Origin: Eledone cirrhosa
Taxonomy: Eukaryota
Direction: 5' to 3'
Length of the DNA: 64,000 bases
Assembly: GCA_964016885.1 (NCBI GenBank)
Contig: OZ024740.1
Coordinates: forward strand, 60,822,001 to 60,886,000
The notes beneath the pieces were generated by a model. That model had not been told where the DNA came from and did no database searches. It saw only the letters and a list, made by a program, of their open reading frames with translations. Shown piece by piece: positions 2,021 to 51,905 of this stretch. The translations under genes were made by a program, and so were the position numbers. Numbering within the stretch: the first letter of the stretch is position 1; every line of letters begins with the position of its first letter.

Positions 2021-3663
2021 TAAGGTTTGTCCCAAAAGTAAGGGTACTGATGTTTTAGTTTAATGTATATTAGATGTACATTAAATTAAGTTATCTTCTT
2101 CCAAATATGATCCTTGGGAAGTCACAAAGGGATTCCGGTTTTTTTTTTCATTGATTCTAGCAGTAACTGTGAGTGTCCTTAGCTCGTTGGTTACAATTTT
2201 TTGTATGTTTTCCTCAGTCGATTTCAATTTAGGGAAGGGGTAGAAATCACATGGAGCTAGATCTGGGCTGTAGGGAGGATATAGAAAAATGAAAATATTT
2301 TTCTTCACCTGCAATTCTCTAATTGAAAATGCTGTGTGAGCAGCAACATTATTGCGATGCAGTACCCAATCTCCTGAAATCTACTTTCAAACTCACTGAA
2401 CCCATTTTCGAAGTCGTTCCATGACATCTTTGTAGAAGGTGCAATTAACTGTCTGTTCTGGAGGTAAAAATTATTTGTAAACTATACCACAGCTATTAAA
2501 AAAATGATAATCATCGTTTACACCCTGGATCTACTCATGCATAGTTTCTGTGGACAAGGAGAATTTTTTGTGCACCACACCTCTCTTTGCTGTTTTGTCT
2601 CTGGATCATACTCAAACACCAATGATTCATCATCATCATCACCGTTTTACGTCCGTTCTTCTACGTTAGCATGGGTTAGACGGGGTGTCCTGTGTGGGCA
2701 GTGTCCGGTCGGCTGACCTTGTCTTGCTCATATGGGAACTGATTCTGGCTTGATTTCTACAACTGGATGCCCTTCCTAACACCAACTTCATTTACAGTGA
2801 GTGGTGGGTGCTTTTTTGCTGTGGCACCTCCACGACCACTTTGTAGGGGAACGATAGGGACCCCAGTCCTATAATCTCATTTCTACAGCTGAGTAAACTG
2901 GAGCAATGTGAAATAAAGTGTCTTGCTCAAGGAAACAACACACATCCAGTCCAAGAATTGAACTCACAACCTTTTGATTGCAAGCCCAATGCTCTAACCA
3001 CTAAGCCATGCGCCTTCAAATGATTCATCTGTTAATACTTTATCCAAGAAATGTGGCTCAATTTCGAGTCTTTCTACCCAATCCTAACAAATTTCCAGCT
3101 AGTTCACTTTTTGCTCTACAGACAAGTGTTTAGGCACTAGTTTTGCACAAACTTTTTGCATGTGCAAATTGTCTGTTAAAATTCTGTGAACTGCAATCTT
3201 CCTATCACTTAATTGGCAGTCTTTTGCCATCACTGCTTGCACCACTTCCATATTTTGTTCATTTGTTGATGAGATTGACCTTCCAGAATGAGGTTTGTCT
3301 TCAACATATTCTCAGTCCTCTTTGAAAGTTTTGTGCCACTTAAAAACCTTACTTCTTGATAGAGTGGCATCTTCATAAACTTGTGTTAAAGAATTAAATG
3401 CTTCCATGGCAGATTTGTTAAGTTTCATATAAAATTCGATTGTATACCATTGTTTGATATTTTCCTGCATCACAAACATTACAGGTTATAAACACTTCTG
3501 TACATAAACAGTAATAACTCATGACTGACTCAATCAATCATGTTGAAACAAGTATGTACCTGCAGCCAAGGCCATAACCAACACACTTTTATACATCAAC
3601 AAAGTGCTGCATACCATGTTGTACATAGGAAAATCAGTACTCTTACTTTTTGGACAAACCTTG
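2021..3663 (-). mobile_element. Full-length degenerate mariner transposon interrupted by a SINE
   Basis: 30-bp TIRs taaggtttgtcccaaaagtaagggtactga / tcagtactcttactttttggacaaaccttg with TA on both sides. PPYSPDLAPCDFYPFPKLK transposase motif at 2081-2314. Confidence 0.9.
2632..3018 (-). mobile_element. tRNA-derived SINE (second family, (ATG)n tail) inserted in the mariner
   Basis: TSD aatgattcatc at 2621-2631 and 3019-3029. A-box/B-box-like head. Related pieces near 1740-1915, 10860-11130, 18620-18900, 20260-20520 and 25800-26085. Confidence 0.75.
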
Positions 3664-6842: not shown

Positions 6843-7137
6843 GCCACAAAGTCAGAAAACAGCACATTTTTTCACACTTAGAGTTGCTGAAGCATGGAAC
6901 AAACTGCCTGCATCAGTTGTTAGCTGCCGAGACACTGCATTCTTTAAAACCCTCATGCTTCCCGAAATTCGCCAAAACTACACATGATGTCCCCCCTCCG
7001 TACACATGCACACATGTGTATACTCATGAACTCTTCATTTTCCTGGCGTTTGTACATTACCCTATGTACTATATATACACTTTTGATGGGTTGTAGTGCA
7101 CCTGAGCACTGTACACAATATTTTCATTATTATTATT
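6843..7137 (+). mobile_element. CR1-type LINE 3' end
   Basis: FFTLRVAEAWNKLPASVV with a (TTA)n tail. Same family as 63648-64000. Confidence 0.8.
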
Positions 7138-8251
7138 TCATTTCCCTATATACGTGTATACACTGATTATAGATTTTTTTTAAATTAATCCTTTTATAAA
7201 AATCATACTTTATAATAATAATAATGAAATTATTGTTTACAGTTCTCAGGTGCACTACAACTCATCAAATGTGCATATATAGTATATAGAATAATTGTTT
7301 CTACTTTTGACCCAAGGCCAGCAATTATCCCAGTGCATTACTGGTACTTTATTTTATCGACCCCGTAAGGATGAAAGGCAAAGTTAACCTCGGCGTAATG
7401 ATGGAAGAATTTGGAGAGTATTACTAAAGTTATTTCATTAAGATGGTATTTGTAGCATAAAAAGTTCTTATATAAAATAATGTTGAAAGATTTTATCTTA
7501 AATAGAAATCATTTAAAAAGAGTGGTTTTATTTTATAGAACCAAGGCAATGTTGAGTGGTTTGGTATCAGGTGGTTTAACTTCATCTTAAAAGATGAAAA
7601 ATATTTTTAATACTGACATCTACACCACATCAGTAGCTTAGTGGATTACTAACCCTAATTCATAAATAAGTGTTGTGGATTTGAATCAAGACAATACTAT
7701 GTAGATATCCAGAAACACAATAACAACTTGGAACCCAACTATAACACTGTTAGAAAAAGAATCTGTAAGTGGTTACTTTACTTGCTAGAAATAACAGCCA
7801 TATTTCTCTCACTCTTAACGTCCTGTACTACATCAAACTGCATCAGCAAAACATTCTGGAAGAGTACAAAACAACACTATGACTGCATCACATTAAAAAT
7901 ATAAATTTTTACTTTAGTTTGCTGCAAAGTTTCACAACTATATGTCCACTAGTAAGGATACTATAAACATTTGAATTAACAATCCTGTTTTCATTCATTT
8001 TCTGCTAAATCATTACACAAAACTGATGGGATGATCATGATTGGAATTCCTTTGCTAATAGATATGCCTGTCTTGAAGCTAAACAATAACTGCTTGATAA
8101 GGGTTGAGCTGAAACTAAGCATTAATCAGAACAACAGATCGTTGAAATTGACAAACTATGGAAAACTGCTTTACAGCTTATGCTTAGCTATGTACTTTAC
8201 TGAATAAAAGAAAATAAAAAGATTTACATAGGCCATACTATCTATCCAGTA

Positions 8252-14469: not shown

Positions 14470-15423
14470 CAGATAGAAAAATGCGTACAGCAAAAAAAAA
14501 GTAATATTGTTGGAATATAAACCTTTAAAGATACAGGACAAGAAACTAAAATAAAACTTTAAAGAATTGGACAAGAAATAAAATATTTTACAATAATATT
14601 AGTGGCAAAATTTTTTTATTCGTTTCCTGTGCTATGCCCCAGTATTTTCTTGCTTAGTGCATAATAATTGTCATGCTCTCATTGTGCGTTGACCCTGAGC
14701 GGTTGGTTCTGGTTGGGGTTGGTTGGCTGAGCAGTTCTGCTCCGTCAGAATGACCATTGCAAGAAGAATTGGCCGATGCAGCTGCAGCTCTCCTCCAAGA
14801 ATGCACTTCTGGTCCCGTAACACCAGACGAAGATGGAGAAGACGACCGGGACAAGATGTCGACTGACAGCCGATTACAGCACCTCCCTCAACCACCGGTC
14901 CTCCCTCCCTCTGTCCCGCCATCCCTCCAGTCCTCCTGCTCCCCCTTCCTGTACCAGAAAGCTGTGGCACGCATTCATCTGGACTGCCGGACTTGAACTC
15001 AAGGACAAGATGCAAGGAGAAGATGGACGGGTTGGTCAAGATCAAGGATGAGCGGGACGACAAGACCGTCTGCTGCTTCTCAAGATCTGTGCTCATGGGC
15101 CCATGGGTCCATTCACATTATGCATGACACATGAGGCGTGTCGCCGAATGATGAAACATGGGTATGGTTATGGCCCAATTGGTGTTCAAACCAGGATCAA
15201 ATGATCCCCCCGGTCTGACGACGACCTCTGAATGTGGAACCCAGAGCCTATGAATGTGGAACTCGATTTTTTACCAATAAAAATTTTGCCACTAATATTA
15301 TTGTAAAATTTTTTATTTCTTGTCCAATTCTTTAAAGTTTTATTTTAGTTTCTTGTCCTGTATTTTTAAAGGTTTATATTCCAACAACATTACTTTTTTT
15401 TGCTGTACGCATTTTTCTATCTG
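14470..15423. repeat. ~150-bp inverted repeats (14470-14620 / 15276-15423) enclosing a GC-rich degenerate ORF region
   Basis: Arms are near-identical reverse complements (cagatagaaaaatgcgtacagc... / ...gctgtacgcatttttctatctg). Confidence 0.9.
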
Positions 15424-19500: not shown

Positions 19501-22274
19501 TTGATTATTTTAATCTAAATAAGAACCCTTTCAAATGGGTGGTTTATTTCATAGAACTAGGGGCAGTTTTGGGTGGGTTGGCATCAAATGACTTTTTCAT
19601 TGGCTTGAATATGTATCATATGTTTATATATGGCATAGGTGTTTTGTTGTATCTTTAAAAGGACAATTCTATATTATTTCTCTTTACCTAGTTGGTAGAC
19701 TTGATCTGAAGATCTATTTAACAACACCTTAATTACCCAGTCATTTCTCCTTTTCTGGCTTGGAGAGATGAATATTTCTCAGCGGCATGCAGAGCTCTGG
19801 TGATGCCCGGGGGCAAATCTTGATTGTATGCCCCAAAGACTCAAGTATAAGGCCTAATATACTGAGAAATATTATGAGAAAGGAAAACATTTTGAATATA
19901 TAAATACAGGTGAAACATGAAATAAATGCTTTATTCGATTTTAATATAAATCAATCAAATTTATTAAGTTCTTTTCCCCAAATGATGTCCCCCATCCAAA
20001 TGATGCCTGGGGCCAATGTAAATATATAATTTTAATCTCATTCTGACAAGTAAAGACAAGTATGGGTGGCAACTTTGAATATGCTTTGTTCTTATGAGAC
20101 CTTCTAAGTGAAGCAAATAAAACCTTCTCTGGGAATTAATTATGTCTGAAAAGATGGGATGGTCATAGCTAGAATGCCTTTAAACATAGGGCTATACTCA
20201 ATGAGGGCTCAGATGGGATAAACAACATCTTGAGAATATAACGCACAAGATAAACCATTATCATCACAGTTTAACGTCCATTTTTCCACGCTAGCATGGG
20301 TTAGACGAGTTGTCCTGTTGTAAGAAATGCTGGGTCATGTCTTGCTCATACAGAACTGATTTTGGCTTGGTTTCTACAACTGGATGCCCTTCCTAACGCC
20401 AAACTCATATACAATGTTCACTGGGTGCTTTTTATTGTGACACCTATACAACCACTTTGCAGTGTGGGATGGTTGTTTTTTGTTTTGTTGCCATCACGGC
20501 CTCTTTACAGTGTGGGCTGGGGACTTTGGTGGGAGAAGTGTGGGGGGATTGAGGAGGGGCAGAGTTTTAGGACATGTGAGGTAATAGAAGGGGGAGGGGC
20601 ACACTAGATGTATGCTTCATCCTGTGTTCATGGGAAGGTGAGCCTTCTGTATTACTGCATACCGCCAGAGATCTCAGTCTTTTGTCATCGCCTTTGAGAG
20701 GTTCAGTAGGGAAAGGTCAGCTTTTATTACATCATCCCAAGTCTTCCTGGGTCTTCCCATTCCATAGCTTCCATCAACTTTCACTGCTCTCTACCTTATT
20801 ATACAGCTGTCATCCTTCATACACATCACGTGTCCATACTAACACAATCTCCTCTCCTGCAACACTACATCTGATCCCTCTTATGCCTAGTTTCTCTCTC
20901 AGTTTGTTTATGCTTTGCCTTTCACATATATTACTGTAACACATCCATCGGAGCATGCTAGCTTCATTTCTTTCTAATCTTCACAAGTCTTCTGCACACA
21001 GTTCCCAGGTCTCACTACCATGCAATATTGTTCATATGCATGCATCATACAGTCTGTCTTTCATTTTGAGGGAAAAGTTTTTTGCAGCTAGTAGTGGTAT
21101 TAGCTCACCGAACATTTTCCATCCCGTTCTCACTCTGACTACTGTACTTTCGGAACACCCACCTCCGCTGCTAATTTAGTCACCCAGTATCATAATGGCA
21201 GAAGAAAATAAGCTATATCACCAAGTTAGTAAGTCTATAGAAGACAATAGTAAAAGGTTTTGTGGTAGTAAGTGATAAGAAAATAGATTGAGATGTATGG
21301 GGGGGGGGGGGAATATGTTTGAAAACAAAAGTTGAGAATAATCTTCAAACATTATTATTATTATCAAAGATGGATTTTAAAGCTGTAGTGATTTTAGAAA
21401 TTAAAATAAATGATATAAGAGATTCATTATATCTTTGATGAAGCAAATAAAAACAAAATAATATTAAATATACAAGAGAGGACTGAAGAAATTGTACAAG
21501 ACAAAGAGAACATAAAGTACCAATCTTATTGATTTAAGTAACAATGACATCTTTTTTTCAGTAATACAAATATTCATTGCTTTGGGGAAAATATCAATAA
21601 GCAATAAACCAATACTTTCTTAGTACTTCATTACCATAAATTTTATAGGATATTTATTTTCAATATATATTCTTGATAAATCAGCCATAAAATACATTGT
21701 TTTTTTTATATGACTCCATTTCTAAGTCAAGCTCTTTACAAAGAAGTCATTTTCGTATAAATCTTCCTTAAACAGCGAATTATATTTTCTAAAACGTATC
21801 ACTGAGGTGATGACTTGAGTTAGAAATTAAGTTTTTAGATATCTACTTTCAATGTTATCCAAGAATTGTTGCATTGCTAGAAATATGAGATGTTATGAAA
21901 GCAATTTCATAAAATATGATGAAAGAAGAAGAAGAAGAAGAAGAAGAAGAAGAAGAATGCGATGATAATGATGATGATAGGTGAAAGCTACAATATTGTT
22001 AAAGCAAGTCTCTAATTATATTTTGTTTCTTGCCATATGTTTTGCTGATAATAACAGTTATCTCTGTACTTCATCAGTACTCAATAATCTGAACCTATGT
22101 AATATTGGATGATATAACAAGATTAGTAAAATAGCTATTGGTGTCAATTCCATGTTAACGAGAGGTTGACTTCGAAAATATATAGTTACTGAATTGGATA
22201 GTGCAATATAACATTACTAGTGATCCTTCCTATTATATCAATAAACTTAAAAGACAACATATATATATAGATTT

Positions 22275-22470
22275 AGTTATGTAATAAACAACATAAGACA
22301 ATTATTCCATTTACCAAAGGTTTCACGAAGACAGTATAGATATATCTTACGTCCATATTAAATAAAATTTCATTCTGATGAGCGATTTCAGACGTCTGTG
22401 TCAAGCTTGTCTGTCTTCGTGAAACCTTTGGTAAATGGAATAATTGTCTTATGTTGTTTATTACATAACT
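22275..22470. repeat. Perfect 60-bp inverted repeat (22275-22334 / 22411-22470) overlapping the HHR; probable PLE pLTR fold-back
   Basis: Arms are exact reverse complements. (TA)n tracts lie at 22259-22269 and 22533-22550. Confidence 0.9.
22368..22440 (+). ncRNA. Type I hammerhead ribozyme with intact core
   Basis: Stem I tttcatt/aatggaa; CTGATGA 22375-22381; stem II gcga/tcgt with internal cagac/gtctg; GAAA 22421-22424; stem III acc-ttt-ggt; GUA cleavage triplet ending at 22433. Confidence 0.8.
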
Positions 22471-22550
22471 GAATAGCTCTGTAGCTTACATAGAGCACTC
22501 TCCTTTCCTTTACTCTTCCTACATAAATACTTTATATATATATATATATA

Positions 22551-22669
22551 GGGAAAGAGTCGGGACCCTGACAGCTGAGCTCTGGCTGTTTCGACAGCTA
22601 GATCTTAATAGTTTGGATCTAACTGTCAAAACGGCTGGAGCTCAGCCGTCGGGGTCCTGACTCTTTTCC
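22551..22669. repeat. 55-bp-arm hairpin made of two inverted copies of an HHR 3' half
   Basis: Arms 22551-22605 / 22615-22669 with 10 transitions and no indels. The minus-strand arm reads GAAA-cagc-cagagctca-gctg-TC. Confidence 0.8.
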
Positions 22670-23591
22670 TATTACCCACTCTACTACCCTAAGTATCAAG
22701 TAATCTGGTGCGTTATGGTCCACCTAGTTCCTTACCATACTTTCTTCGTTTATATATAAACCCCCTCTGCCAGTCACTTTCTCTGTTAGCCTCTTCCTCA
22801 CACTTTCACTCACTCACTCTCTGCTACTCCCTCTCCTACTTCCTCCCGTTTGATCTGTGTGAAATTCTTTCCTCACTCACATTTCGACCAAGTTGGATGG
22901 TCTTTATTCTCTCTCGTCTACGATTTCACAGAACTTATGTTCATCGATTTCAGGGACTTGACTCCTTCTTCCTCACTTTTCGTTGCATTACCATCTTTGT
23001 TTGTTTACTGTCTCGCTCGTTCCCCCCATCTACATGTCCCAACAACTTTCTTTAGTCGTTGCTAGCACCAACCAGAGGTATATGGTCTTTAAAGCGATGA
23101 AATACCAATGAAGGCTGGAAGATCACTGATGAAGGACTAAATTTATTCATATATATATATATATATATAATTACATATTTATACATTGAAAAACCTTTTA
23201 AATATACATATTTGAAGCTAATTGTTTTGTTTCTTTAAAAAATATTAATAACATTTATCTTCTTAATGTATTTTAACATTCTGATTTCTGTTTGTATTTT
23301 CTATTGAGTTTATGACCAAAACATAAAGGCTAGCCACATCATTCTATGTCTGCATGATCTAGCATCATTTTATATGAAGTTTAATATTCTATCATGTACT
23401 TTGGATACTGGCATGGCTGTGTGGTTAAAAAGTGTGCTTCACAACCCTTTGACCCTGGGTTCAATTCCACTATGCAGCACATAAAGTATCATCTCTCATA
23501 GCTTTAGATATCTAAACTTCCATCAACTCTATCACAAAGAAAGACATAGCTACATTGAACATCAGTAGACCCTCCATTAGTATGTCATTAA

Positions 23592-23968
23592 GGCGGTGGA
23601 TTAGCGGAATCGGTAGAGCGTTAGACAATATGCTTTGAGGCATATAGTTACAACCCTTTACGATTTAAGTTCAAATCCACCTGACGGGTTGATAAAATAA
23701 AGTACCAGTCATGCACTGGGGTCGATTTCATTGACTTTCCACTCAACCAAAACTGTTGGCCTTGTACCTTAATCAGAAACCATTGGCAGTATCAGTAGAG
23801 CGTCAGACACAATGCTCTACAGCATAGAGTTATGGCCCTTTACGTTCTGAGTTCAAATTCCGCTGGGGATTAACTTTGCCTTTCATCCTTATGGGGTCGA
23901 TAAAATAAAGTACCAGTAACGTACTGGGATAATTGCTGGTCTTGTGCCAAAAGTAGAAACAATTATTA
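23592..23968 (+). mobile_element. Tandem pair of the dominant SINE
   Basis: Same head, core and tail motifs. Confidence 0.8.
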
Positions 23969-26089
23969 CTATGACATCAGTCTCCAAATTCCTTTTCAAG
24001 ATCAACAAGAAACAATTGAGTGACATTTGTGCCAAGATAATAAAGGAAAACGGCAAAGACAAGCTCATTCAAAAATAAGCATCTACTTAACATAAGACTA
24101 TGTTTTTATGAAAGATCTCTATGTTGCTTGATCTAGCATTGGAAAGAAAAACAGCTTTAGACTTGTTTCAGCAAAGAATGTTAATTTTGATAGTAAGATA
24201 TTTAAAAAACGACTGTATTTATGAAGCAACTCAATAAATGTTTTGCTAACTTTTGTTTATTTGTTTTTCTCCCAATTATTATTATGTCTGTTTTTGTTTT
24301 TTTCAGCATTTTCTTCTTTTTCCAAGCTACGTCTCACAACTTTAAGTATCTAGCACCATTCTTATAGTTTGTGCTATTCTAAGTAAACAAGCTTTCTATA
24401 GAGTAAAAAGTAAACAAAATTACTTCGCTATCTAGCATCTTCAATCAACCATTGCTCCTAAGGCTCCTGTTACAATCGGGATAACAACTGTATTGTAATT
24501 CCAATATTATTGTTATTATTATTCACATCATTATCATTATTTCAGGTTTCTATAAAATATTTCCATTATTTCTCAAACCACCCAAACGATAATGTATTTA
24601 GGAATTTAAGATTACTGTTTGTGTGTCTAGAAAATATTCTGAATGATAGAAAATAACATTAGTACAATTCAGTAAAAAATTTCTGACAAGAGTCACAACA
24701 CACGTATTGTTACAACTCCCTTCTCAATGATTGAACTTATTTCTGTTATTCATATTACTTCAAATCAATATAATTACAAGTTTCTAGCAAATAAACCTTC
24801 CTTCCAGGGATAAGATATCTACTGCTAATCATTTATCTAACAATATATATAGGCAATATTATGATATAACATTTAATCACATCAAACCAAATTCTTAAGA
24901 GAATATTGAAAAGTGTTAATCAAATAAAATAATATATTTCATAAAGATATTAATTATACAAAATGTCTCGCATTCTTTCAGATTTTTAGATTTGATATTT
25001 AAATCTTCAGATATATATTTAAATGAAATTCTAATCATTGCATAAGTGTGCTTTATTTATAAATATATATATATATATAAAAAAAATATATATATATATA
25101 TGTATAAATATATGTGTGTGTGTGTGTATAACAAAGAAAGTGTGGTAAGATACCAGGTGGACCATAACGTACAAGAGTACTCGATACTTAGGGTAGTAGA
25201 GTGGTGTATATATATATGTGTGGGGGAGGGTGAGAGCGTGAGTACATTAATATATATACATTTATTTAGCTTGCATTAACCAGGGATTAAATTTTGTATT
25301 CAGTTCTCAGATGTATTGTATAAAAAAAACTTGACTGTGCTGGTACAGATATGTGATGAATGCGGAAGATGATATTTGGGTGCAGAGGGGTCGAGTGATC
25401 CAAGGTGAAGGGAGCTGATCAAGGGGAAAAGTTGTGAAAATATATTTCAAGAGGCTAAATGCAATGAAGGAGACAACAAAGGATTCAATATAAGTACAGA
25501 GACACTTCCATAGAAAATCCATCCAACAGAAGGTTTTCAAAACAAATAGCAGACCGTCTGATTTATTTTTTATTTTTGCATTCGTATAAAAAATATGAAT
25601 CATGCATATGAACAAAGAAACTTTGCAACTATAGCTATCCAGCTATGATAATCGCATCTGTTAACCACTAACTTGACTAAAACATAAATTGTACTAAATG
25701 TTATTCTAGTAGGCACCTCTTAAACACTATAACCCGCACCCCTACACCACCCTCCTACTTCTGCTCACACCACCCTTACTCTGTAAAGTTATGTTGGTAT
25801 CACAAACACATCCAGCCTAGACTATAAAGTGGTAGGGTAAGTATCACGACAAAAAGCACCCAGCCCACACTGTAAAGTGGTCATGTCAGTGTCACGGCAA
25901 AGAGCACCCAGTACAAACAGTAAATGTGGTTGCCGTTAGGAAGGGCATCCAGCCGTAGAAATCTAGCCAGAAACAGTCCTATATGAGCAAAGCACGGTCA
26001 CCCGAACCAACTTGCCTCTAATGGGACAAACCCATCTAACCCATGCTAGCGTGGAAAATAGACGTTAAATGATGATGATGATTGCTTCA

Positions 26090-28050
26090 TACGTGCAAAC
26101 ACCAAAATTAATTGGACTATTTGTTTTTAAAAAATCTTTTTTAGACCATATATTCAAGAATACTCTGTTTGTTAGGGTGTTACTTCGATCTTACCCACAG
26201 GAAACTCCAAAAGTCATCCACACCTAGGTACATTAACACTCAACCTTTGAAAACCCGTGACAAACAAATTGAGTTCTGCAACAAACTGAATAGAGCTCTT
26301 GACTGTTGAGATCATTGAGGACATTGAATCATTTTGAAAGGCTCTCAGGGATGCTCACCTGCTGTATCTTTAGAAGTTCTCGGACTACTTGTTTAGAAGC
26401 ACCAGGATTGGTTTGAATATAACGTCATAGTCCAGCTGTTAATCCAACAAATGCAAAGCTTCTATAAAGCGTGGATAAATAACGATTTATAGTATAGGCA
26501 CAAGGCCAGTAATTTTTTTGGAGGGGAGTCAATCAAATTGACCCCAATACATTACTGGTGTTTTATTTTATCGACCTCGTAAGGATGAAAGGCAAAGTTA
26601 ACCTCGGCGGGATTTGAACTCAGACCGTAAAGGGCCGTAACTCTGTGCTGCAAAGCATGGTGTCCAACGCTCTACAAATACTGCCAATCCACCGCCCAGA
26701 AGCGTGGATAAATAATTGTTTCTACTTTTGGCACAAGGCCAGCAATTATCCCAGTGCATTACTGGTACTTTATTTTATCGACCTCGTAAGGATAAAAAGA
26801 AAAGTTAACCTCGGCGAGATTTGAACTCATATCGTAAAGGCGCGTAATTCCATGCTGCAAAGCATGGCGCCCGACCCTCTAACGATACTGCCAATCTAAA
26901 GAACTCATCAATCAAACATCAGGCATACAAAAAGAGCAAAATTCAGATTCAATGAGCTTTCAGGAAAATGATAGAGACTTGGTGGTCTGCAAAGGCAATT
27001 GAACTCCAACAAAATGCAGATAGGAAGGACTCTAAGGCCTTTTATGATGGTCTGAGGAAGATGTATGGTCCTCAAGAGAGTGGTGTCTCGACGGTTCTTT
27101 CATCTTCATCTGATGGGTAGTCAAACATCCTAAAAAGATGGAAAGAGCACTTCGAAAGTATATTGAACTCTACCTGTCATTGATGATGATGCTATAGCGT
27201 CCATTTCCCATCCTGAAAAACCTGAAATGTCTATTAAACTAACACTGCAGTAAAGTACCTGGCAAGGATGCTATTCTGCCAGAGAGTTTTAAGTATCATG
27301 GACAAAAGCTGGTCAGGAAACTGCATGAGCTCTTCAAAACAATTTGGAGAGCCAGCTGTGTTCCTCAGGACTACAAAGATATGTCCACCAAACATCTCTA
27401 CAAGAACAGAGGGAATAGAAGTGTATATGATAACCATCGTGGGATATCACAGGCTGATACTCAATAGGATCATCAAATATATTGTCGATGTTATTTACCC
27501 CGAATCGCAGTTTGGCTTCTTTTCAGGCTGTGGCACCATCAACATGATCGTTTCTTTTTGTCAGGTTGTTGAGTTCTATGAGAAAAATCAGGTGCTGTAT
27601 ATAATGTTTGTAGATCTAACCTTTGACATTTTGACACTGTAAATCGGCAAGCACTCTGGAAAGTTCTAAAGAAGTTTGGTACACCTGACAAGATGCTTAA
27701 CACCAATGTCGCCTTCCATGAGGGAATGAAAGCTGCTGTTTTATCTGATGGGGAATTGTTGGATTCCTTTGACGCGACAAATGGCATAAAACGAAGCTGC
27801 CATGGCTCCAGTTCTTTTTGCACTATTCTTCTAGGTGTTATATTCAAATTTCAAACTAGGGGTAGACTTTTCAACCATTAATGGTTCAAAGCTAAGATGT
27901 ATCTACGAACCAGCATATTTTTCAGTCTCCTTTTTGCATATGATACTGCACTTATAGCAATATCTTTAGCCTAAGAACAGGTAAACCATTTTTCTTTTAC
28001 AAGTAAAACCTTTTGGCTTACCATCAGCATAAAGAAAGCGAGATGCAGAC
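26090..28050 (+). mobile_element. Degenerate RTE-clade LINE (reverse transcriptase region)
   Basis: KRWKEHFESILN, PESQFGF...GTINM, FVDLTFD and LLFAYDTAL. Many stops and frameshifts. Confidence 0.85.
26484..26895 (-). mobile_element. Tandem pair of the dominant SINE inserted in the RTE LINE
   Basis: Same motifs. Direct repeat aagcgtggataaataa flanks the first copy (26468 and 26700). Confidence 0.8.
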
Positions 28051-28355
28051 CCCCAACCTGTCTGGGAAGTCAGTACTAACTCCAGTACTAACTCGGTCTT
28101 TGAAGACCTATCGAATCCTTGATAGCAGGGAAGGCAGATGTTAAATGATGATGATTGAAAATGATAAATGAACAGCAAATAAATTATGGGCTCATTACTT
28201 TACTAAATATAGTAAACCGGGTTGCATTATAAACATTTGGCTATAAAGTAATCAAAATTTAGATTACAGTAATCTGAAAGTACCAAGTGAACTATACGTT
28301 TTATTGAATATCAAATCCATTATGTTTGTGTTCGTTTCTTGTATAAGCAACTTAC

Positions 28356-28385
28356 GCTGAGAAATCTATATCCATTACTACATAG
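28356..28385 (-). CDS. Second exon of the same gene (S-YVVMDIDFS-A, phase 2 to 2)
   Basis: Acceptor ctttgattctcaaacag and strong donor gtaagt. 142-nt intron to exon 1. Open in the phase supplied by exon 1. Confidence 0.6.
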
Positions 28386-28527
28386 CTGTTTGAGAATCAA
28401 AGTGTAAGGAGATTATATATATATCCATTACTACCACTATGACTATATCTTGTAAATTAAGATGAAGATCCAAAATGGAAATATGTGTAACTAGGTTGAA
28501 GTACAGAATAACAGTAAAAATATTTAC

Positions 28528-28583
28528 CTTTTACCGGAGAACGCAATTTGGTAATGTTTAGCTGTTTCAGGTTGTTTTGACAT
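28528..28583 (-). CDS. First coding exon of an unidentified minus-strand host gene (MSKQPETAKHYQIAFSGK, phase 2)
   Basis: agaATG start, 56 nt open, ends AAG|gtaaat donor. The phase fits the next exon without a stop. Lies in non-repetitive sequence. Confidence 0.6.
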
Positions 28584-28718
28584 TCTTTACAATTCAAACC
28601 AAAATATTTTGACAGACTAAGAATGAACGTTTAAATAAAATAAATACAGAAAGAAAACAGACGATTGAAAGAGATTTGTATTTTATAAAGTAAAAAATAT
28701 TGATAATACAATGTATAT

Positions 28719-29078
28719 ACTTACCCTTTGTCGCTGGGTAAGAGGCTGGTGTCTAATCTGGGACGTCACAGTCAGTGACTCTTTTGCTCCCTCCAACATC
28801 ATGGACGCAGCGGTAAATGTGGGGGAGGGGTCACTAATTCCGTTGCTGGACGGAATAAAGTTCGTAAATACCTGGATTTATCCAGCAATTATTTTTTCCA
28901 GCCTGTGACGTTAGAGACGTTTGGTAGAGTTGGACCGCTGACAGCTAAGTTCTTGTCATCACTGGCGGTTAACCTTACTGAGGTGTCAGGTGATGCTCGT
29001 GATGGTGCCTGGCTGTTTCAGCGCCTTAGCCTCGCAATCACCCGTGGCAATGCTGCGAGCTTGCATCAAAGTGTTTAG
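28719..29078 (+). mobile_element. CRE-like retrotransposon 3' fragment
   Basis: LIWDVTVSDSFAPS...KVRKY...FQPVTLETFG...LFQRLSLAITRGNAAS, frameshifted. Confidence 0.8.
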
Positions 29079-29514
29079 CTAAACCTTATGATGTGATGTG
29101 CGGTCGATTGTCGCACGTGACGGTAAATTGATGATCGTTTTTGTTTTTACCCCCCCCCCCCCCCCTTTTTTTTCTTCTCTTTTATGCGTTTATATTTGTG
29201 TTTATCAACGACAGTATATTTGTAAAGTTCTGAACGAATGTGAACAATTTATAATGCTATTTACACATTTAATTTAGCATTTAAAAGCATGAAAAATATA
29301 TATTGCCACGAAAATAGCCATAAAAAACCGCGGAAAATATTTACGATTTTAGTTAGTTAGTAATATTACGAAATTAGTTAGTTTCTGCGGAAAGTTCCGC
29401 GAATAACCGAGACTACACTGTATTGGTACTCATACTAGAAAAATAAAACTATTTAGAATATAAATAATACTGATCAATCAGTCTCTTGAAATGGGGAAAA
29501 TAACATTAAATAAT

Positions 29515-29701
29515 TGTTTCTACGTTAGGCACAAGGCCAGCAATTAGCCAGTGCATTACTGGTACTTTATTTTATCGACCCCGTAAGGATGAAAGGCAAA
29601 GTTAACCTCGGCGGGATTTGAACTCAGAATGGCAAGGGCCGTAACTCTATGCATCAAAGCATGGCATCCAACCCTCTACCGATACTGCCAATTCACCGCC
29701 C
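29515..29701 (-). mobile_element. Full-length dominant SINE with 12-bp TSD
   Basis: TSD acattaaataat at 29503-29514 and 29718-29729. Confidence 0.85.
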
Positions 29702-29947
29702 TTTAATTTGTAGGATTACATTAAATAATGTAATCCTACAAACTTTAAAATGTCAGGTGATAATGACTGGAATTATACGTCTGTTCTATCAAGGATGTTG
29801 TGTGATTAAATGACAACTTTTAAAAAATGAAATGGAGAAAACTAACAAGTTTTATATCACATAGCCAAATCTAAAATATGTTCAATATGTCAGCGTGCAT
29901 TCTGAAAAATGAACTATACATACATACATATGCATGCACATTTATTC

Positions 29948-29991
<44 letters not shown>

Positions 29992-30209
29992 GATAACAAA
30001 ATATCGTTATAGGTAATCCAATTAGAGGTTGTGAATACTTCTTCTTATGGATAGTTTTAGCGTACGGCGTTGCTTGACTCAACAAGAGGTTTACGTAGAT
30101 GACGAGTTTATGATTTCACTTGTATTCCTATGTAAGTTTATCTTGGAGTAATAAAATTGAAAAAAATGGAGAATAACATGGTCAAGGGTACAAAAAAGGG
30201 GTTTATTTG

Positions 30210-30330
30210 CAGTCTAACAATTGTTTCACTGATAGAGTATCCTAAAAATTGCTGTTTTATATCACATAGCTAAAAACAGTGCCACTCAATTTTAAATACG
30301 ATGTTAACTCTACTAGATCATCGGAAACTG
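30210..30330 (-). ncRNA. HHR variant in the PLE 3' region (CCGATGA core, ~90-nt stem II insert)
   Basis: Minus strand: cagttt-CCGATGA-tctagtagagt...actctatcagt-GAAA-c-aatt-g-TT-agactg. Stem I has 6 bp and the stem III loop AATT is palindromic. Confidence 0.65.
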
Positions 30331-32810
30331 TTAAAAAATATATATGTAACCGACAAATTTACAAATTCAAATTACATCATCAATAATAATATTAATAATA
30401 AAGATATAGAGAGAAAAGAAGGAAGAAAGGGAGATAGATACAGTAAAGAAAGAAAGGAAAGGAAGGAGAAAGAAGAAGAAGGAAAAGGAAAAATAAAAAG
30501 AGAAAGAAGAAGTAAAGGAGAAATTATTATAGATAGAAATATAAAGAGAGGAAGATATATAGAAGATGATGGTATATAGATGAGAGACAAACATAAGTAA
30601 GAATAACGTAGGATAGAGAAAAGAAGAGAAAAGAATAGAGGGACAAATAAATGAATAAACGTTAATGTATGAATAAATGTAAATAAAAATAGAAATATAA
30701 AAAAAATATGAAAAAATGGTGAAAATATGATAATGTTAAATATATAATAATGTGTGTATTGGTTATTTTAATAAATAAATAAATTAATTAGTTTTAAGTT
30801 ATATTATATGATAAAATAAAATGACAGAGATGAAATAAATTTAGGGAGAGAAATATTAAGATAAAGGGTGAAAAATAGAGATATATAAAATAAGAATGTA
30901 AATATAAGAGGTTTTGATGTTGTTCTTTGATAGATGATGACAATTATAATTATAATGATGATGATGTTGATAATATGATATAATAGATCCAAGTGGTATA
31001 ATCTGGGTTATGGAATAGATAAGGTGGAATTAAGCTGGTCTAAAGTTCTCAAATTTAGTCGCTGATTTATGTCGACAAAAAATGTTTTTTTTTCAATTTT
31101 ACTGTTAAGAAGAATTTTTTTTGTAATTTAAAATTTGGAAAAGTTCCATATTACAGAGACTACAGTGGGACATACCAATTTGATAGGCCTTTGTTATTGA
31201 TAGCTTTGTCCAGCTGATTTTATATTCCATGTTTGCATCTTTAAGTTGCCAGATTTTATTGGCGAGAGTCGTTGTCTTTGAGAGATTCCTGTTAGTCATA
31301 TAGTGTCTATGTACGTACCACATTTTCTTAAACTCCCCAGTTGTGGAACCAATGTAATGCCATGCTAAGCTACCTGAATCGAAGCTACCTGAATTGAAGT
31401 TACATTTATTATCCATCATAAACATAAAAATTGGCAACAAGCATGTAAATTAAAGGAACAGAATACTAATGCAAAGACCACTAATAACTATAGAAGATGC
31501 AGAAATAGAAATTACTTATGGTTCAATCCAATGTTTAACTCCTCTATAAAAACTAAGCTACTTTACACTTTCTTCAAATTAGTTGACAAACATTTCCCTA
31601 AAATTCATAAATATCATAAAATATTTAATAGAAAAACTATCAGACTATCATACTCCACTGCCAACAACATAGAATCGCACATACATAAATTAACTATAAA
31701 AGAATTTATAATACAAGTGGCTCGCAAATAAGTACCTTAACACCTAATACAAAACAGATGCCTAGAGACAAATATAGTATACCTATGTACTACAAATTCA
31801 TTAGCTTAGCATGGCATTACATTGGTTCCACAGCTGGGGGGTTTAAGAAAATGTGGTGCGTACATAGACACTCTATGACTAACAGGAATCTCTCAAAGAC
31901 AACGACTCTCGCCAATAAAATCTGGCAACTTAAATATGCAAACATGGAATATAAAATCAGCTGGACAAAGCTATCAAATTGGTATGTCCCACTGTAGTCT
32001 ATGTAATATGGAACTTTTCCAAATTTTAAATTACAAAAAAAATTCTTCTTAACAGTAAAATTGAAAAAAACATTTTTTGTCGACATAAATCGCGACTAAA
32101 TTTGAGAACTTTAGACCAGCTTAATTCCATCTTATCTATTCCATAACCCAGATTATACCACTTGGATCTATTATATCACATTATCAACATCATCATCATT
32201 ATAATTATAATTGTCATCATCTATCAAAGAACAACATCAAAACCTCTTATATTTACATTCTTATTTTATATATCTCTATTTTTCACCCTTTATCTTAATA
32301 TTTCTCTCCCTAAATTTATTTCATCTCTGTCATTTTATTTTATCATATAATATAACTTAAAACTAATTAATTTATTTATTAAAATAACCAATACACACAT
32401 AAATATATTTAACATTATCATATTTTCACCATTTTTTAATATTTTTTTTATATTTCTATTTTTATTTACATTTATTCATACATTAACGTTTATTCATCTA
32501 TTTGTCCCTCTATTCTTTTCTCTTCTTTTCTCTATCATACGTTATTCTTACTTGTTTGTCTCTCATCTATATACCATCATCTTCTATATATCTTCCTCTC
32601 TTTATATTTCTATCTATAATAATTTCTCCTTTACTTCTTTCTCTTTTTATTTTTCCTTTTCCTTCTTCTTTCTCCTTCCTTTCCTCTCTTTCTTTACTGT
32701 ATCTATCTCCCTTTCTTCCTCCTTTTCTCTCTATATCTTTATTATTAATATTATTATTGACGATGTAATTTGAATTTGTAAATTTGCCGGTTACATATAT
32801 ATTTTTTTAA

Positions 32811-32919
32811 CAGTTTCCGATGATCTAGTAGAGTTAACATCGTATTTAAAATTGAGTGGCACTGCTTTAGTGTTCAGCAATTTTTAGACAACTCTATCAG
32901 TGAAGCAATTGTTAGACTG
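32811..32919 (+). ncRNA. Second copy of the same HHR variant, with GAAA mutated to GAAG
   Basis: cagttt-CCGATGA...tGAAGcaattgtt-agactg. Confidence 0.5.
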
Positions 32920-32970
32920 CGAATAAATTCCCTTTTTTGTACTGTTGACCATGTTATTCTCCACTTTTTC

Positions 32971-33002
<32 letters not shown>

Positions 33003-33125
33003 GCATGCGCATACATTTATATATATATATATATATATATATGCATTCATATATATATATATATATATATGCATACGCATTCATTCATTCATATATATAT
33101 TATATGCATACGTATTCATTCATTC

Positions 33126-33177
<52 letters not shown>

Positions 33178-33210
33178 GTATTCATTCATTCATATATATA
33201 TATATGCATT

Positions 33211-33248
<38 letters not shown>

Positions 33249-33264
33249 TAGATAGATAGATAGA

Positions 33265-33805
33265 TAATCTGAGTTTTTCGAATATTAATAATAACATTCG
33301 ATTCGTTTGCAATTATGCAAACAAGCCTCATTTTTAAAGCCATTTCAGTAGAATGAACCCTTCATTCTTGCTCTTGTGTTGGCATCTAAACAGAACTGCA
33401 GACACTAATGTTTTTTTTTTATTATGAATGTGGCAATGCCGGCCATTTATCGCTCGTATACAGGAAACTGACTGGCCAGTCTGCTGATATGCAAATCTGG
33501 GTAATCAGTGGATCTACTAATATGTAGATCTGACTGATCAGCCAGTCATATGCAAATCAGGCCGATCAATCACTGTATATTTTTGAAAATAGCATATATT
33601 TTTACTAGCTCTGACAGTTGGTAGGTGAGCAGTGAGCTGTACTGATGAAGGGTGATACCCAGAAACTTTGCAGTTCTGTTTACATGCCAACACAAGAGCA
33701 AGAATGAAGGGTTCATTCTACTGACATGGTTTTAAAAATGAGGGTTGTTTGCATAATTGCAAACGATTCGAATGTTATTATTAATATTCGAAAAAACTCA
33801 GATTA
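33265..33805. repeat. ~136-bp inverted repeat (33265-33400 / 33669-33805); probable PLE pLTR fold-back
   Basis: Near-identical reverse-complement arms bounded by (GATA)n/(GA)n/(TA)n on the left and (TA)n at 33842 on the right. Confidence 0.9.
33634..33676 (+). ncRNA. Degenerate HHR (stem III mostly deleted)
   Basis: gagctgta-CTGATGA-a-gggt-gat-accc-a-GAAA-ctt-tgcagttc. Stem I has 8 bp and stem II 4 bp. Confidence 0.55.
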
Positions 33806-33838
33806 CATTTATTGTATTCAGCCATGTAGAGCGAAAAT

Positions 33839-33877
<39 letters not shown>

Positions 33878-38520: not shown

Positions 38521-38774
38521 TCAGACAGTTAGAACTGGCTGATCATGTAGTTGATCTCCGGTCGGTAATCACGGAAGCCCAGAAAAGGGTCTCGCCAGTC
38601 TACTATCACGGATGCCCGAGAAAAGAGCTACAATGTTGTCATTTCTTCTGATTAAGCCATTATAAAAATACTTTGAATACGTTATAAAAAAAATTTAGAG
38701 AATTTCGAAATTTCGAAGAAGCAAGTTTTTCTCAAACTTTATTCTTTGTTCAATCAACAGCTACGAAACAGGAA

Positions 38775-39560
38775 AAATGATTTCTAGTTATAGGCACAAG
38801 ACCAGTAATTTTGGGGGAGGGGAAAGTCGATTAAATCGATCCAGTACGTTACTGGTACTTTATTTTATCGACCCCCGTAAGGATGACAGGCAAAGTTAAC
38901 TTCGGCGGGATTTGAACTAAGACCATAAAGGGCCGTAACTCTTTCCTGCAAAAGCATGGCGTCAGACCCTCTACCGATACTGCCTACCTTTTATGGTCTG
39001 AGTTCAAATCCCGCCGAGGTTAACTTTGCCTTTCATCCTTACGTGATCGATGAAATAAAGTACCAGTAATACACTGAGATAATTGCTGGCTTTGTGCCAA
39101 AAGTAGAAATAATTATTATTAGCAGTCACTTCTGACGGCACGGGACCAGCTAGTGAACATAAATAATAAATATTTTTTTATTTTGGCGTAAAGCAAGCAA
39201 TTTAGAGGAAAGGAAAGGAAAGTCGATTAAATCGACGTCACTACTAAACTGGTACTTTATTTTATCAACCACTGAAGAATGAAAGGTAAAGTTGAACACA
39301 GCAGGATTTGAACTCAGATTGGGAAGAACCGGAACTAATAATTATTAATATTATCACAAGCCCTAGGGCGGTGGATTGGCAGTATCGGTAGAGAGTCGGA
39401 CACCATGATCTGAGTTCAAATCCCGCCGAGGTAAACTTTGCCTTTCATCCTTACGGGGTCGATAAAATACAGTACCAGTGCGTGACTGGTACTGTATTTA
39501 ATCGACTTTCCCCTCACCCCAAATTACTGGTTTTGTGCCTATACTAGAAATCCTTATTAT
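38775..39560. mobile_element. Cluster of four SINE copies in alternating orientation
   Basis: Minus copy ~38775-38985, plus ~38990-39120, minus ~39180-39330, plus ~39365-39560. Confidence 0.8.
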
Positions 39561-40361: not shown

Positions 40362-40949
40362 TAATATATTTCTTTATCGTACTGTATTGTTTCCGTTTAC
40401 TTTTCGCATACACATAGAACAGTCTGCTCGTTAAATTAACATGCAAATAGCTGAGCATACCACTGACGCGTGTACCCTTGGGTAGATTCAGTGCGATTAG
40501 AATAACGTGAAATAAAGTGTCAAGCGTAAGGACTTAATACGCCGCCGAGAATCGAACTCCTGGCGTTACAATCGTGAGCCGAAGACCACTAAGCCATGCG
40601 CTTTCGCACACAAATCACAATGCATGGTCCTGTAACTCCTGGGTGAGTCGTAGGAGTGCCGTATTGACATACGGCGTTTCTAGGGCATTCTAAAACTTGG
40701 CAGGCCCAATCCTCTTCATGTCTAAATGAAACTGATTTCCTCCAGAGAAGGATAAAGGATCAAATAATGGAAGTGAGGAAGAGACACAGAAGAAAGAATC
40801 GGCCCCTATGCTAGACTGGTAATGTTTTTATCGACCTGGAAAGGATGAAAGACAAAGTTGACTTCTGCGGGATTTGAACTCACAGAGCTGAAACGAATAC
40901 CGCAAAGCATTCTGTCCGACGATCTAGCGACTATGTATTCGCCAATGTT

Positions 40950-49880: not shown

Positions 49881-51226
49881 CTCAAAAGTTATTAGAGATG
49901 TTTCCCAGTGCTCCTCGCAATACTTATCTTTTGCTCTGTAAGCATTTCATTTGTCCACCCCTTTTGTTGTATGTGGTCCTAGATGTGTGTATTGCATGCT
50001 TATGTGTTTTCTTTCTCTTTCTTTTCCCCCTTTCCCTCCCCTTCTCTTTGTATATATTATATTTGTTTGCGTTTCCGAGGGCGGAGGATTGGCAGTATCG
50101 GTAGAGAGTCGGACGCCATGCTTTCCAGCATAGTTACGTCTCTTTACGGTCTGAGTTCAAATCCCGCCGAGGTTTACTTTGCTTTTCATCCTTACGGGGT
50201 CGATAAAATAAAGTACCAGTGGGTAATTGCTGGCCTTGTGCCTAAAGTAGAAACAATTATACTATTATATATTTATACAAATGTACATAAAAAAAATACA
50301 TAAATTAATTTTAAGACGATTTTTTAAAAAATTGCAACATCCGTACTACAGCGAATGGTGACTCGCAGGAATAGGCGAACGTTTCTATCATTATTCTGTT
50401 CTTAAACAAGTTTTTCTCTAGACACTAACCCAGGTTACATTAATTGTGCTCTTGTGCAACAGAAAATCTAACTAACCATCTATTTAAGTCCATAGAAAGA
50501 AATATAGCAAAATGTAATAGAGATTAAAGAGATATTTACATGGTAAAATACATTTAATACTACTTTTTGTTGCTTTGTCATTTTCTTTCATGTCAGTTTT
50601 TGTACATTATTTCCACACAGTGTTATCCTTAACCCTTTAGCATTTGCATTACTCTATATTTACAATTGTATTTTCGCGGTAAAGGCTTTATCTTACATAA
50701 TTATCTCATGTAATATTTAATGTTATTTATTTTGAGAACAATACCTTAACATCAGTATGAGTGACCAGCAATAGTTGGTTTAAACAGAAAGAAGTAAGAG
50801 AATTCTGGCCGGATATAGCCAGTTTGAACAGAAAGAGGTGAGATAATTTTGGCCGGATACAGCCGGTTTAAATGCTATAGGGTTAAAGTACATAAAATCG
50901 CCTTCTGGACAACATATTTTCGTAGTTTAGAAAAATAAAAAAGCGGTTATCGTATTTTTCGATTTATAAGACCAATACTGGTCTTACCTATAAGCTATAG
51001 CTTAGGGCTACACATCCTCGGAGGCCTCATTAAAAAAAATATTTATTTTTATTTCATCATTAGTTTTATTATACAGGGTGGTCCGGCGTTCTTCACCTAC
51101 TTCGCAGGCCTTGAATAATAGTTTATCGTTCCCGCTTATTAATTGTTTAGACCCCCCCCCCCCCACCCATAAGATACACTTTGACGTTAAAAATCTGCCT
51201 GCGTCATAACAGCCGAGAGTATAATC

Positions 51227-51905
51227 ATAATTGCTTCTACTTTTTGCACAAGGCCAACAATTACCTCGGTGCATTACTGGTACTTTATTTTATCGACCCC
51301 GCCAGGATGAAAGGCAAAGTTTACCTCGGCGGGATTTGAACTCAGACCGTAAAGGGACGTAACTATGCTGGAAAACATGGTATCCGACCCTCTACCGATA
51401 AATGCTTTAAAAAACAATTTTGGTGCAAAGTCAGCAATTTCGAGGAAAGGAAAGTCGATTAAATTGACCTCAGTACTGGTTTTATCGTCCCCCAGAAGGA
51501 TGAAAAATAAAGTTGACCATAGTAGGATTTGAACTCAGACTGTAAAGAGCCAGAACTGGCATTATCGGTAGAGCGTCGGACACTCTGCTTAGCGGCATAG
51601 TTACGGCCCTTTACGTTCCGAGTTCAAATCCCGCCGAGGTTAGCTTTGCCTTTTATTTTTACTGAGACGATAAAATAAAGTACCAGTCATGCATTAGGAT
51701 CAATTTAATCGACTTTCCCTTCACCCAAAATTGCTAGCATTGTGCGTAAATCAGAAACCATTATTATCACAAACCTTGCCATTCTGAGTTCAAATCCCGC
51801 CGAGGTTAACTTTACCTTTCATCCTTACGGGGTTGATAAAATAAAGTACCAGTAATACACTGAGTAATTGCTGGCCTTGTGCCTAACGTAGAAACAATTA
51901 TTATC
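51227..51905. mobile_element. Cluster of four SINE copies (two minus, then two plus)
   Basis: Same motifs. Head-to-head junction near 51556. Confidence 0.8.

What the first reader, a model, noticed from the sequence alone, without database searches (positions are those of the whole stretch)
22259..33875. Recurring architecture: ribozyme-containing fold-back palindromes in (TA)n, with inversion points inside the hammerhead
Seen: four palindromes with no obvious sequence similarity to each other (22275-22470, 22551-22669, 30151-32977, 33265-33805) abut (TA)n-type microsatellites, point their 3' ends outward and contain an HHR or HHR half. In the three small ones the inverted arm starts within the ribozyme: the stem II loop (22411), just 5' of the GAAA position (22615), or exactly at the 3' strand of stem I, where cleavage would occur (33669). 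Known: PLEs carry type I HHRs in pseudo-LTRs, form inverted 5'-truncated structures and can favour microsatellites. Inference: self-cleavage or the ribozyme fold sets where reverse transcription ends and switches template, producing several families of tiny non-coding HHR hairpin retroelements.
Basis: partly seen in the sequence, partly recalled or inferred. Interest (0 to 1): 0.8.

Follow-up and report, generated by a model that had tools for sequence, protein, structure and literature searches.

The report
Head-to-head Penelope stubs ending inside ribozyme
The four palindromes are head-to-head pairs of truncated copies of Penelope-like jumping genes inserted in (TA)n repeats, a known by-product, and their breakpoints are not enriched at the ribozyme's predicted cut site; in one family most copies stop at one spot inside the ribozyme that is likely where the element's RNA begins.

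Summary
All four palindromes are real and belong to four high-copy families of Penelope-like elements (PLEs) or their derivatives. Each is two 5'-truncated copies joined head to head in (TA)n. Exactly one arm carries the PLE 'tail' in 103 of 112 pairs, which is the known PLE insertion anatomy; this scan reached the same verdict once on another genome (e1-9995956). Junctions vary between copies and the tail-less arm is the longer one in 43 of 103 pairs, which argues against single-strand fold-back and against self-copying hairpin elements. One result is unusual. In family 2 (22548-22750), 151 of 167 arms stop in a 19-nt window about 40 nt upstream of the cut, inside an enlarged stem II, at an initiator-like motif, often with an extra G. 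This fits run-off at the RNA's capped start rather than cleavage. No RNA data could test it, and the G test is missing for the window's own subfamily.

The parts
22271..22334 (-). P1 (family 1) inverted 5'-truncated arm, no tail, outer end in a short TA run; inner end equals position -22 from H17 (window 22411)
22342..22470 (+). P1 direct arm, 5'-truncated PLE 3' end
   Evidence: 91% to long copy L291
22367..22441 (+). Complete type I hammerhead: 8-bp stem I, canonical core from 22375, 39-nt stem II region, G12 at 22421, short stem III, H17 at 22433; activity untested
   Evidence: constrained fold within 0.9 kcal/mol of the minimum
22471..22532 (+). P1 tail (about 60 nt), followed by (TA)n 22533-22550 into which P2 is inserted
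22548..22605 (-). P2 (family 2, subfamily a) inverted arm, no tail; inner end about -35 from H17
22610..22672 (+). P2 direct arm; starts at the A of the initiator-like motif (-40), the family's main stop position; holds the 3' half of the hammerhead (G12 mutated at 22628, H17 at 22650)
22673..22750 (+). P2 tail (about 78 nt); in full-length copies it continues into the ORF
29989..30150 (-). P3 (family 3) tail, about 160 nt, next to (TA)n 29948-29988
30151..31379 (-). P3 inverted arm; inner end lies in the endonuclease-coding part
31419..32978 (+). P3 direct arm, internally deleted: ORF remnant (31435-31722, 80-91% identical to many genomic copies), 3' UTR, ends in (TA)n 32976-33205 without tail
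32810..32920 (+). Hammerhead-like motif of family 3: core from 32817 with U4-to-C change in most copies, 78-nt stem II region, G12 box mutated in this copy, H17 about 32913
33265..33413 (-). P4 (family 4) inverted arm, no tail; runs through the cut site and stem III into the G12-A14 box
   Evidence: 98% to L053 over 149 nt
33413..33812 (+). P4 direct arm: most of a ~430-nt non-coding unit; hammerhead core from 33642, stem III and cleavage triplet lost in this copy
33813..33842 (+). P4 tail (about 30 nt), equal to the start of the unit; followed by (TA)n 33842-33874

Best explanation
Each palindrome is a pair of 5'-truncated copies of one Penelope-like element joined head to head in a (TA)n repeat, likely made in one insertion event from two separately primed cDNAs, and in family 2 these cDNAs likely run off the RNA's capped 5' end, which would lie inside the hammerhead. 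Shown: the anatomy, the one-tail rule, ORF-coding parents for families 2 and 3 (and a family 1 relative), the stop distributions, and the extra G. Inferred: the element's endonuclease nicks both strands of (TA)n; one strand primes at the near start site (no tail) and the other at the far site (tail), as PAc does in vitro; both cDNAs stop early and their ends are joined with little or no overlap, or with short insertions. Inferred for family 2: an internal promoter starts RNA at -40 from the cut site, in loop II, so this RNA's 5' end holds only half a ribozyme and cannot be cut there; priming at the 5' pLTR/ORF junction then yields 60- and 140-nt run-off products. Full-length copies, which pass this point, would come from another template (circular or read-through RNA, or a template jump). 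Self-cleavage does not set the breakpoints.
For: One tail in 103 of 112 head-to-head pairs, none in 8, both in 1 (f1 20/23, f2 59/64, f3 8/8, f4 16/17). Tail-less arm longer in 43, tailed arm longer in 41, equal in 19 of those 103. Full-length family 2 copies show pLTR-tail-ORF-pLTR, about 3.2 kb (L536, L537, L539). ORFs run RT, cysteine linker, C-terminal GIY-YIG-type region; Atlas neighbours carry RVT_1 and GIY-YIG (score 0.94-0.96). Family 2: of 197 arms, 167 reach -29 and 151 stop in -29..-47 (0.086 per nt against 0.010 before and 0.016 after; subfamilies a 46/48, b 87/99, c 18/20), although their loop II sequences differ upstream of the shared motif. Solo arms joined to an (AT)3 run at -40: G 61, T 25 (native), A 8, C 6 in the first 100 of 279 hits; at -29: G 1, A 6, T 93 in 100 of 117; background G 568: A 2812 in the same context; Fisher 61:8 against 1:6 p=9e-5. 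Arms primed inside the ORF stop at -32..-43 in 4 of 4 that reach -28. Cut site not enriched: f1 5 of 81 (p=0.18), f3 0 of 35, f4 3 of 31 (p=0.32). PMC11167929: PAc extends both strands, has two start sites that bound the tail, and inserts equally well with a dead ribozyme. PMC2377424: the Penelope promoter is internal to the pLTR.
Against: All 6 full-length-type copies whose 5' pLTR reaches -28 pass the stop zone (-68 to -286), so a linear RNA starting at -40 cannot be the template of those copies without an added step. The extra G is not unique to -40: at -35 it is 30 of 79 (T 23, C 20 native, A 6), which may be a second start or may be background; against the unconditional background after (AT)3 that G:T ratio is not raised (p=0.47) and the G:C excess at -40 is modest (p=0.004). 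In the other register G is only 6 of 100. Within my 197-arm sample G preceded -40 in 8 of 42 arms, about half of them explained by the partner arm. Some arms reach -41 to -49. The G test was not obtained for subfamily a, the window's own. Bin limits were chosen after seeing the data, both arms of a pair were counted, and the samples are the first hits on one chromosome. The two arms never came from different subfamilies (60 typed pairs equal, 4 untyped), which fits one RNA read twice but also copying of one arm from the other. Pfam support for the ORFs is weak (GIY-YIG E=0.012, RVT_1 E=0.045, below cut-offs).
Confidence: 0.68

Rival explanations
1. Same two-cDNA insertion, but the family 2 stop zone is a stall of reverse transcriptase at the folded (or protein-bound) upper part of hammerhead stem II on an uncut or circular RNA; a second pass round the template meets no fold, so full-length copies pass.
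For: The zone -34..-43 is the 3' strand of a predicted upper helix of stem II in all three parents. It explains why 6 of 6 full-length-type copies pass. Families 1 and 3 also lose arms faster at the ribozyme's 5' edge (36 of 51 at -55..-92; 6 of 28 at -91..-112).
Against: Arms pass the stronger stems I, III and lower II at only 0.010 per nt. The upper helix is weak and its 5' partner differs between subfamilies while the 3' motif is kept. A stall does not predict the position-specific extra G. Family 4 shows no excess anywhere in its ribozyme.
Confidence: 0.2
2. One reading: ribozyme self-cleavage fixes the RNA 5' end, the cDNA folds back there, and the hairpins spread as small elements of their own.
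For: A few arms end at the cut (f1 5 of 81 within 2 nt; f4 3 of 31 within 5 nt). One family 2 junction type (-40 joined to -34) recurs, and 13 of 64 pairs have the same 50-nt inner gap. PMC3846280 reads junction palindromes as self-priming.
Against: No significant excess at the cut; 28 of 57 family 4 arms and nearly all family 2 arms run through it. In 43 of 103 pairs the longer arm lacks the tail, so one strand cannot have templated both. The recurrent junction occurs with the tail on either arm and in two subfamilies. Inner gaps range from 18 to 717 nt in family 2.
Confidence: 0.05
3. The short family 2 arms descend from a few short non-autonomous master copies that were themselves truncated at -40, so the stop zone is inherited rather than made anew.
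For: Short copies outnumber long ones about ten to one, and some tail variants look commoner in short copies.
Against: The same boundary appears in subfamilies a, b and c, each with its own long parent, and in arms that carry ORF sequence behind the tail. A short master would still need an RNA start at that place.
Confidence: 0.07

Closest known systems
Insertion units of C-terminal-endonuclease Penelope-like elements (Neptune/Nematis type)
   Same: RT followed by a cysteine linker and GIY-YIG-type region; pseudo-LTR partial tandem; adjacent inverted 5'-truncated copy; tail at one end only; hammerhead in the pLTR; microsatellite targets (PMC8557442, passages; PMC3846280, passages).
   Different: Tails are longer here (about 60, 78 and 160 nt against 30-40); stem II is enlarged (39, 57 and 78 nt) so Rfam misses the ribozymes; family 2 is dominated by 60-140 nt stubs with a sharp 5' boundary.
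PAc (Poseidon of Anolis) in vitro mechanism, PMC11167929
   Same: Two internal start sites that bound the tail, extension of both target strands, uncut RNA as template, no reads ending at the cut site.
   Different: Different clade; that work did not map 5' ends of genomic copies against the ribozyme in the parts I read.
PLE hammerhead variants, PMC4209133
   Same: Type I motifs with weak stem III, a U3-A8 core variant (24 of 31 family 2b cores read here), and pairs of motifs 100-700 bp apart on opposite strands ascribed to truncated PLEs.
   Different: Stem II is far longer here, and the family 2 stem III is a 7-bp helix.
Non-LTR retrozymes (PMC7229834; bioRxiv 10.64898/2026.07.22.740005)
   Same: Family 4 is a ~430-nt non-coding unit with a type I hammerhead whose tail equals its start and which forms partial tandems.
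   Different: Mostly truncated, inverted and dispersed rather than in long arrays; circular RNA untested; families 1-3 are ends of longer elements.
Drosophila virilis Penelope internal promoter, PMC2377424
   Same: Promoter and start site lie inside the pLTR.
   Different: There the intron, which starts 46 nt after the start site, ends at the 5' end of helix I, so the start is upstream of the ribozyme; here it would lie inside loop II.

Membership tests
Endonuclease-positive Penelope-like element | Single ORF with RT and GIY-YIG endonuclease | tested here: met
   Families 2 and 3 and a family 1 relative: RT catalytic motif and C-terminal GIY-YIG-type region read directly; Atlas neighbours with RVT_1 and GIY-YIG; Pfam only below cut-off. 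No ORF found for family 4.
Endonuclease-positive Penelope-like element | Pseudo-LTRs from a partial tandem with a variably truncated upstream copy | tested here: met
   Family 2 full-length copies L536, L537, L539; family 4 partial tandems. Not examined for families 1 and 3.
Endonuclease-positive Penelope-like element | Adjacent inverted 5'-truncated copy and tail at one end | tested here: met
   103 of 112 pairs
Endonuclease-positive Penelope-like element | Hammerhead motif in the pLTR | tested here: met
   Core and three stems in all four families, with core variants in families 2 and 3; thin covariation, 2 double changes in lower stem II among 8 sequences
Neptune/Nematis clades | Cysteine (Zn-finger-like) linker between RT and a C-terminal endonuclease | tested here: met
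   Seen in L311, L316, L319, L323, L536; definition from PMC8557442
Neptune/Nematis clades | RT groups with the clade in a phylogeny | not tested
   No named reference proteins at hand
Naiad/Chlamys | Endonuclease N-terminal to RT | tested here: not met
   RT comes first in all long ORFs
Non-LTR retrozyme (family 4) | Tandem units of 170-400 nt, each with a type I hammerhead | tested here: inconclusive
   ~430-nt unit; partial tandems, one with two cores (L054); no long arrays among loci seen
Non-LTR retrozyme (family 4) | Expressed as self-cleaved linear and circular RNA | not testable with these tools
   No raw RNA reads were offered (run for family 2)
Self-propagating palindromic element (MITE-like unit) | Constant inner junction and length across copies | tested here: not met
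   Inner gaps 11-234 (f1), 18-717 (f2), 178-1428 (f3), 131-647 nt (f4)
Active hammerhead ribozyme | Self-cleavage at H17 | not testable with these tools
   Folding only; window copies of P2, P3 and P4 carry core damage

The most novel reading that the evidence does not exclude
In family 2 the promoter fires inside the hammerhead. The main RNA starts with half a ribozyme and its only whole ribozyme, at the 3' end, cuts off the 3' priming sites, so reverse transcription can start only near the 5' end and makes strong-stop-like cDNAs that insert two at a time as thousands of tiny palindromes; full-length copies come from ribozyme-made circles. The genome would then record two RNA templates of one PLE and show what the ribozyme is for.
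Probability: 0.3. Interest if true: 0.7.

Novelty: new variant of a known kind. Interest (0 to 1): 0.45.

Why it matters
How PLEs make their inverted and tandem structures, and what their hammerheads do, are stated as open in PMC8557442 and PMC11167929. These families give counts on that question: a near-strict one-tail rule that matches two start sites on two strands, no breakpoints at the cut site, and one family with a sharp RNA-end signature inside the ribozyme that a single 5'-end mapping experiment can test. They also show that PLE hammerheads with 40-80 nt stem II inserts escape Rfam. The recurring architecture itself is known.

Tried and rejected
Rfam at E<=1: only microRNA-like hits on repeats, no hammerhead. 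A pattern for a compact family 2 hammerhead gave 56 mixed joins because the parent's core is the U3-A8 variant with a 57-nt stem II. Naiad identity: rejected by domain order. Top-scoring DNA hits favour copies shaped like the query, so they were not used for breakpoint counts; pattern hits in genome order were. The first family 1 mapping was capped by short references and was redone; references still end at internal microsatellites near -180 to -200. Family 3 ends in low-complexity UTR are unreliable. Family 4: 8 of 65 arms dropped (7 interrupted by a SINE end, 1 self-reference) and 5 hit the reference limit at -293. RNA: no RNA holder listed; four contig sets laid nothing; no evidence either way. 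The extra-G test within my own 197-arm sample was uninformative. A downstream promoter element at +28..+32 matched only partly by eye (consensus recalled), not used. No genome-wide test of hammerhead enrichment among all (TA)n-flanked palindromes was possible.
Full report
Positions are given relative to H17, the base 5' of the predicted hammerhead cut (0); negative is upstream. Families 1-4 correspond to palindromes P1-P4.

Observation. Self-comparison finds all four inverted structures. They share nothing but one 14-nt match. The window lies in a 3.0-Gb genome. Each palindrome belongs to a repeat family: exact pattern counts are 853 for family 1, 1,887 for the tail-less end of subfamily 2a, 6,412 for subfamily 2b, 448 for family 3 and 3,754 for family 4; reversed-pattern controls gave 0. 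My descriptor passes one whole hammerhead in the window, in P1; Rfam finds none. P4's apparent breakpoint at the cut site comes from loss of stem III in the right arm; the left arm keeps that sequence and ends at 33413.

What they are. P3 carries an ORF remnant with 150 scored matches of 36,049 first-look candidates in the genome. Long copies encode RT, then a cysteine linker, then a GIY-YIG-type region. Family 2 has full-length copies of about 3.2 kb built as pLTR, tail, ORF, pLTR, and a family 1 relative flanks the same kind of ORF (L323). Pfam hits are below cut-off; the Atlas returns animal clusters with RVT_1 and GIY-YIG. This domain order is that of Neptune/Nematis PLEs, not Naiads (PMC8557442); no tree was built. 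Family 4 is a ~430-nt non-coding unit whose tail equals its start, so it is retrozyme-like. All four have a type I hammerhead or a variant: family 2 has the U3-A8 core and a 57-nt stem II region, family 3 a U4-to-C core and 78 nt. Covariation support is thin and activity is untested.

Anatomy. Among head-to-head pairs in loci taken in genome order, exactly one arm had the tail in 103 of 112, none in 8, both in 1. An inverted truncated copy and a tail at one end are the described PLE structure (PMC8557442; PMC3846280), and opposite-strand hammerhead pairs were noted in PMC4209133. The tail-less arm reached further upstream in 43 of 103 pairs, the tailed arm in 41, and 19 were equal. A single strand folding back would have to hold both the tail and the longer reach, so 43 pairs need two priming events. 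PAc extends both strands from two start sites that bound the tail and does not need an active ribozyme (PMC11167929). The arms of a pair were never of different subfamilies (60 typed, 4 untyped).

Breakpoints. Samples: family 1, 86 arms; family 2, 197; family 3, 38; family 4, 65, of which 8 were dropped (7 SINE-interrupted, 1 self-reference). They come from the first listed pattern hits on contig C1, plus arms met in the same loci; bins were set after looking. At the cut site: 5 of 81 (p=0.18), 0 of 35, 3 of 31 (p=0.32); family 2 could not be scored there because its anchor spans the cut, but its arms run past it. Family 4 is flat at 0.005-0.006 stops per nt. Family 1 loses 36 of 51 arms at -55..-92 (0.028 against 0.0075 and 0.006) and family 3 loses 6 of 28 at -91..-112 (0.011 against 0.0025), at or just before the ribozyme's 5' edge. 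Family 2 loses 151 of 167 at -29..-47 (0.086 against 0.010 and 0.016), in all three subfamilies. The upstream edge is the A of a five-base initiator-like motif (consensus recalled) that the three parents share while the loop upstream differs. The window's P2 right arm starts on that base, 22610.

RNA-end signature. Reverse transcriptases often add a base opposite the cap, seen as an extra G (recalled). For solo 2b/2c arms joined to an (AT)3 run at -40 the base between was G 61, T 25 (native), A 8, C 6 in the first 100 of 279 hits, four G rows being one array (tallied by eye). At -29 it was G 1, A 6, T 93 in 100 of 117; background in that context is G 568: A 2812. Against this reading: at -35, G was 30 of 79, the other register gave 6 of 100, the excess over the unconditional background is modest (p=0.004), and the palindromic sample was uninformative. 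Subfamily 2a remains untested. Of 18 arms whose tail continues into the element (from 66 loci of 91 hits, the later 36 chosen partly for junction type), 4 short ones reach -28 and all stop at -32..-43, whereas 6 full-length-type ones reach it and all pass.

Mechanism. Shown: anatomy, parents, distributions. Inferred: both strands of (TA)n are nicked and primed at the two start sites; the two cDNAs end early and are joined with small overlaps or insertions. In family 2 the likely limit is the RNA's capped start in loop II, in line with Penelope's internal pLTR promoter (PMC2377424), though there the start lies upstream of the ribozyme. A fold-dependent stall is the main rival; cleavage-set breakpoints are not supported.

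Literature seen. PMC8557442 passages; bioRxiv 10.64898/2026.07.22.740005 part 1 of 5 and passages; PMC11167929 parts 1-2 of 4; PMC2377424 passages; PMC4209133 parts 1-2 of 4; PMC7229834 passages; PMC3846280 passages; PMC13282606 passages. Searches listed no paper that maps PLE 5' ends against the ribozyme or puts a start site inside it. No supplements were read; the family files of PMC8557442 and PMC4209133, Repbase and subscription papers may bear on this. An earlier scan note on another genome (e1-9995956) also judged such a palindrome an ordinary PLE by-product.

Verdict. Interest 0.45.

Noticed in passing
window 25128-25204 (-), 2901-3018 (-), 40500-40605 (-): An isolated family 2 tail between microsatellites, and two isolated family 3 tail pieces.
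   Followed up: no
window 7056-7295, 14470-15423, 38773-39558, 51224-51904, 54708-55247: Five more inverted-repeat structures; none holds a motif passing my hammerhead descriptor and none is flanked by long (TA)n on both sides. They look like MITE-like elements or inverted SINE pairs.
   Followed up: no
L184, L187, L198, L203, L462, L474 (family 4, +109); L481, L490 (family 3): The 3' end of one SINE-like repeat joins family 4 at the same position in 6 of 65 arms, and family 3 at similar AT-rich triplet runs: a shared target site or a recurrent chimera.
   Followed up: no
window 22533-22550; L025, L083, L147, L027, L097: These families insert into the (TA)n next to each other again and again, so clusters like this window's are expected.
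   Followed up: partly
window 22548-22605 against 22616-22672: The 9 differences between P2's arms over 57 nt are all transitions (read); CpG decay is the simple reading, RNA editing of the hairpin was not tested.
   Followed up: no
L280-L309 upstream of the family 1 match: Long family 1 copies carry an internal mixed (TA)/(TG) microsatellite in the 3' UTR about 200 nt upstream of the cut, which mimics an element boundary.
   Followed up: partly
G000:C3:187250085-187250332: Four family 2b stubs in a 74-nt tandem array.
   Followed up: no
L334, L348, L390, L401, L402, L406, L407, L411, L391: One junction type (an arm to -40 joined to an arm to -34) recurs in subfamilies 2b and 2c, with the tail mostly on the shorter arm; its joining chemistry is unexplained.
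   Followed up: partly
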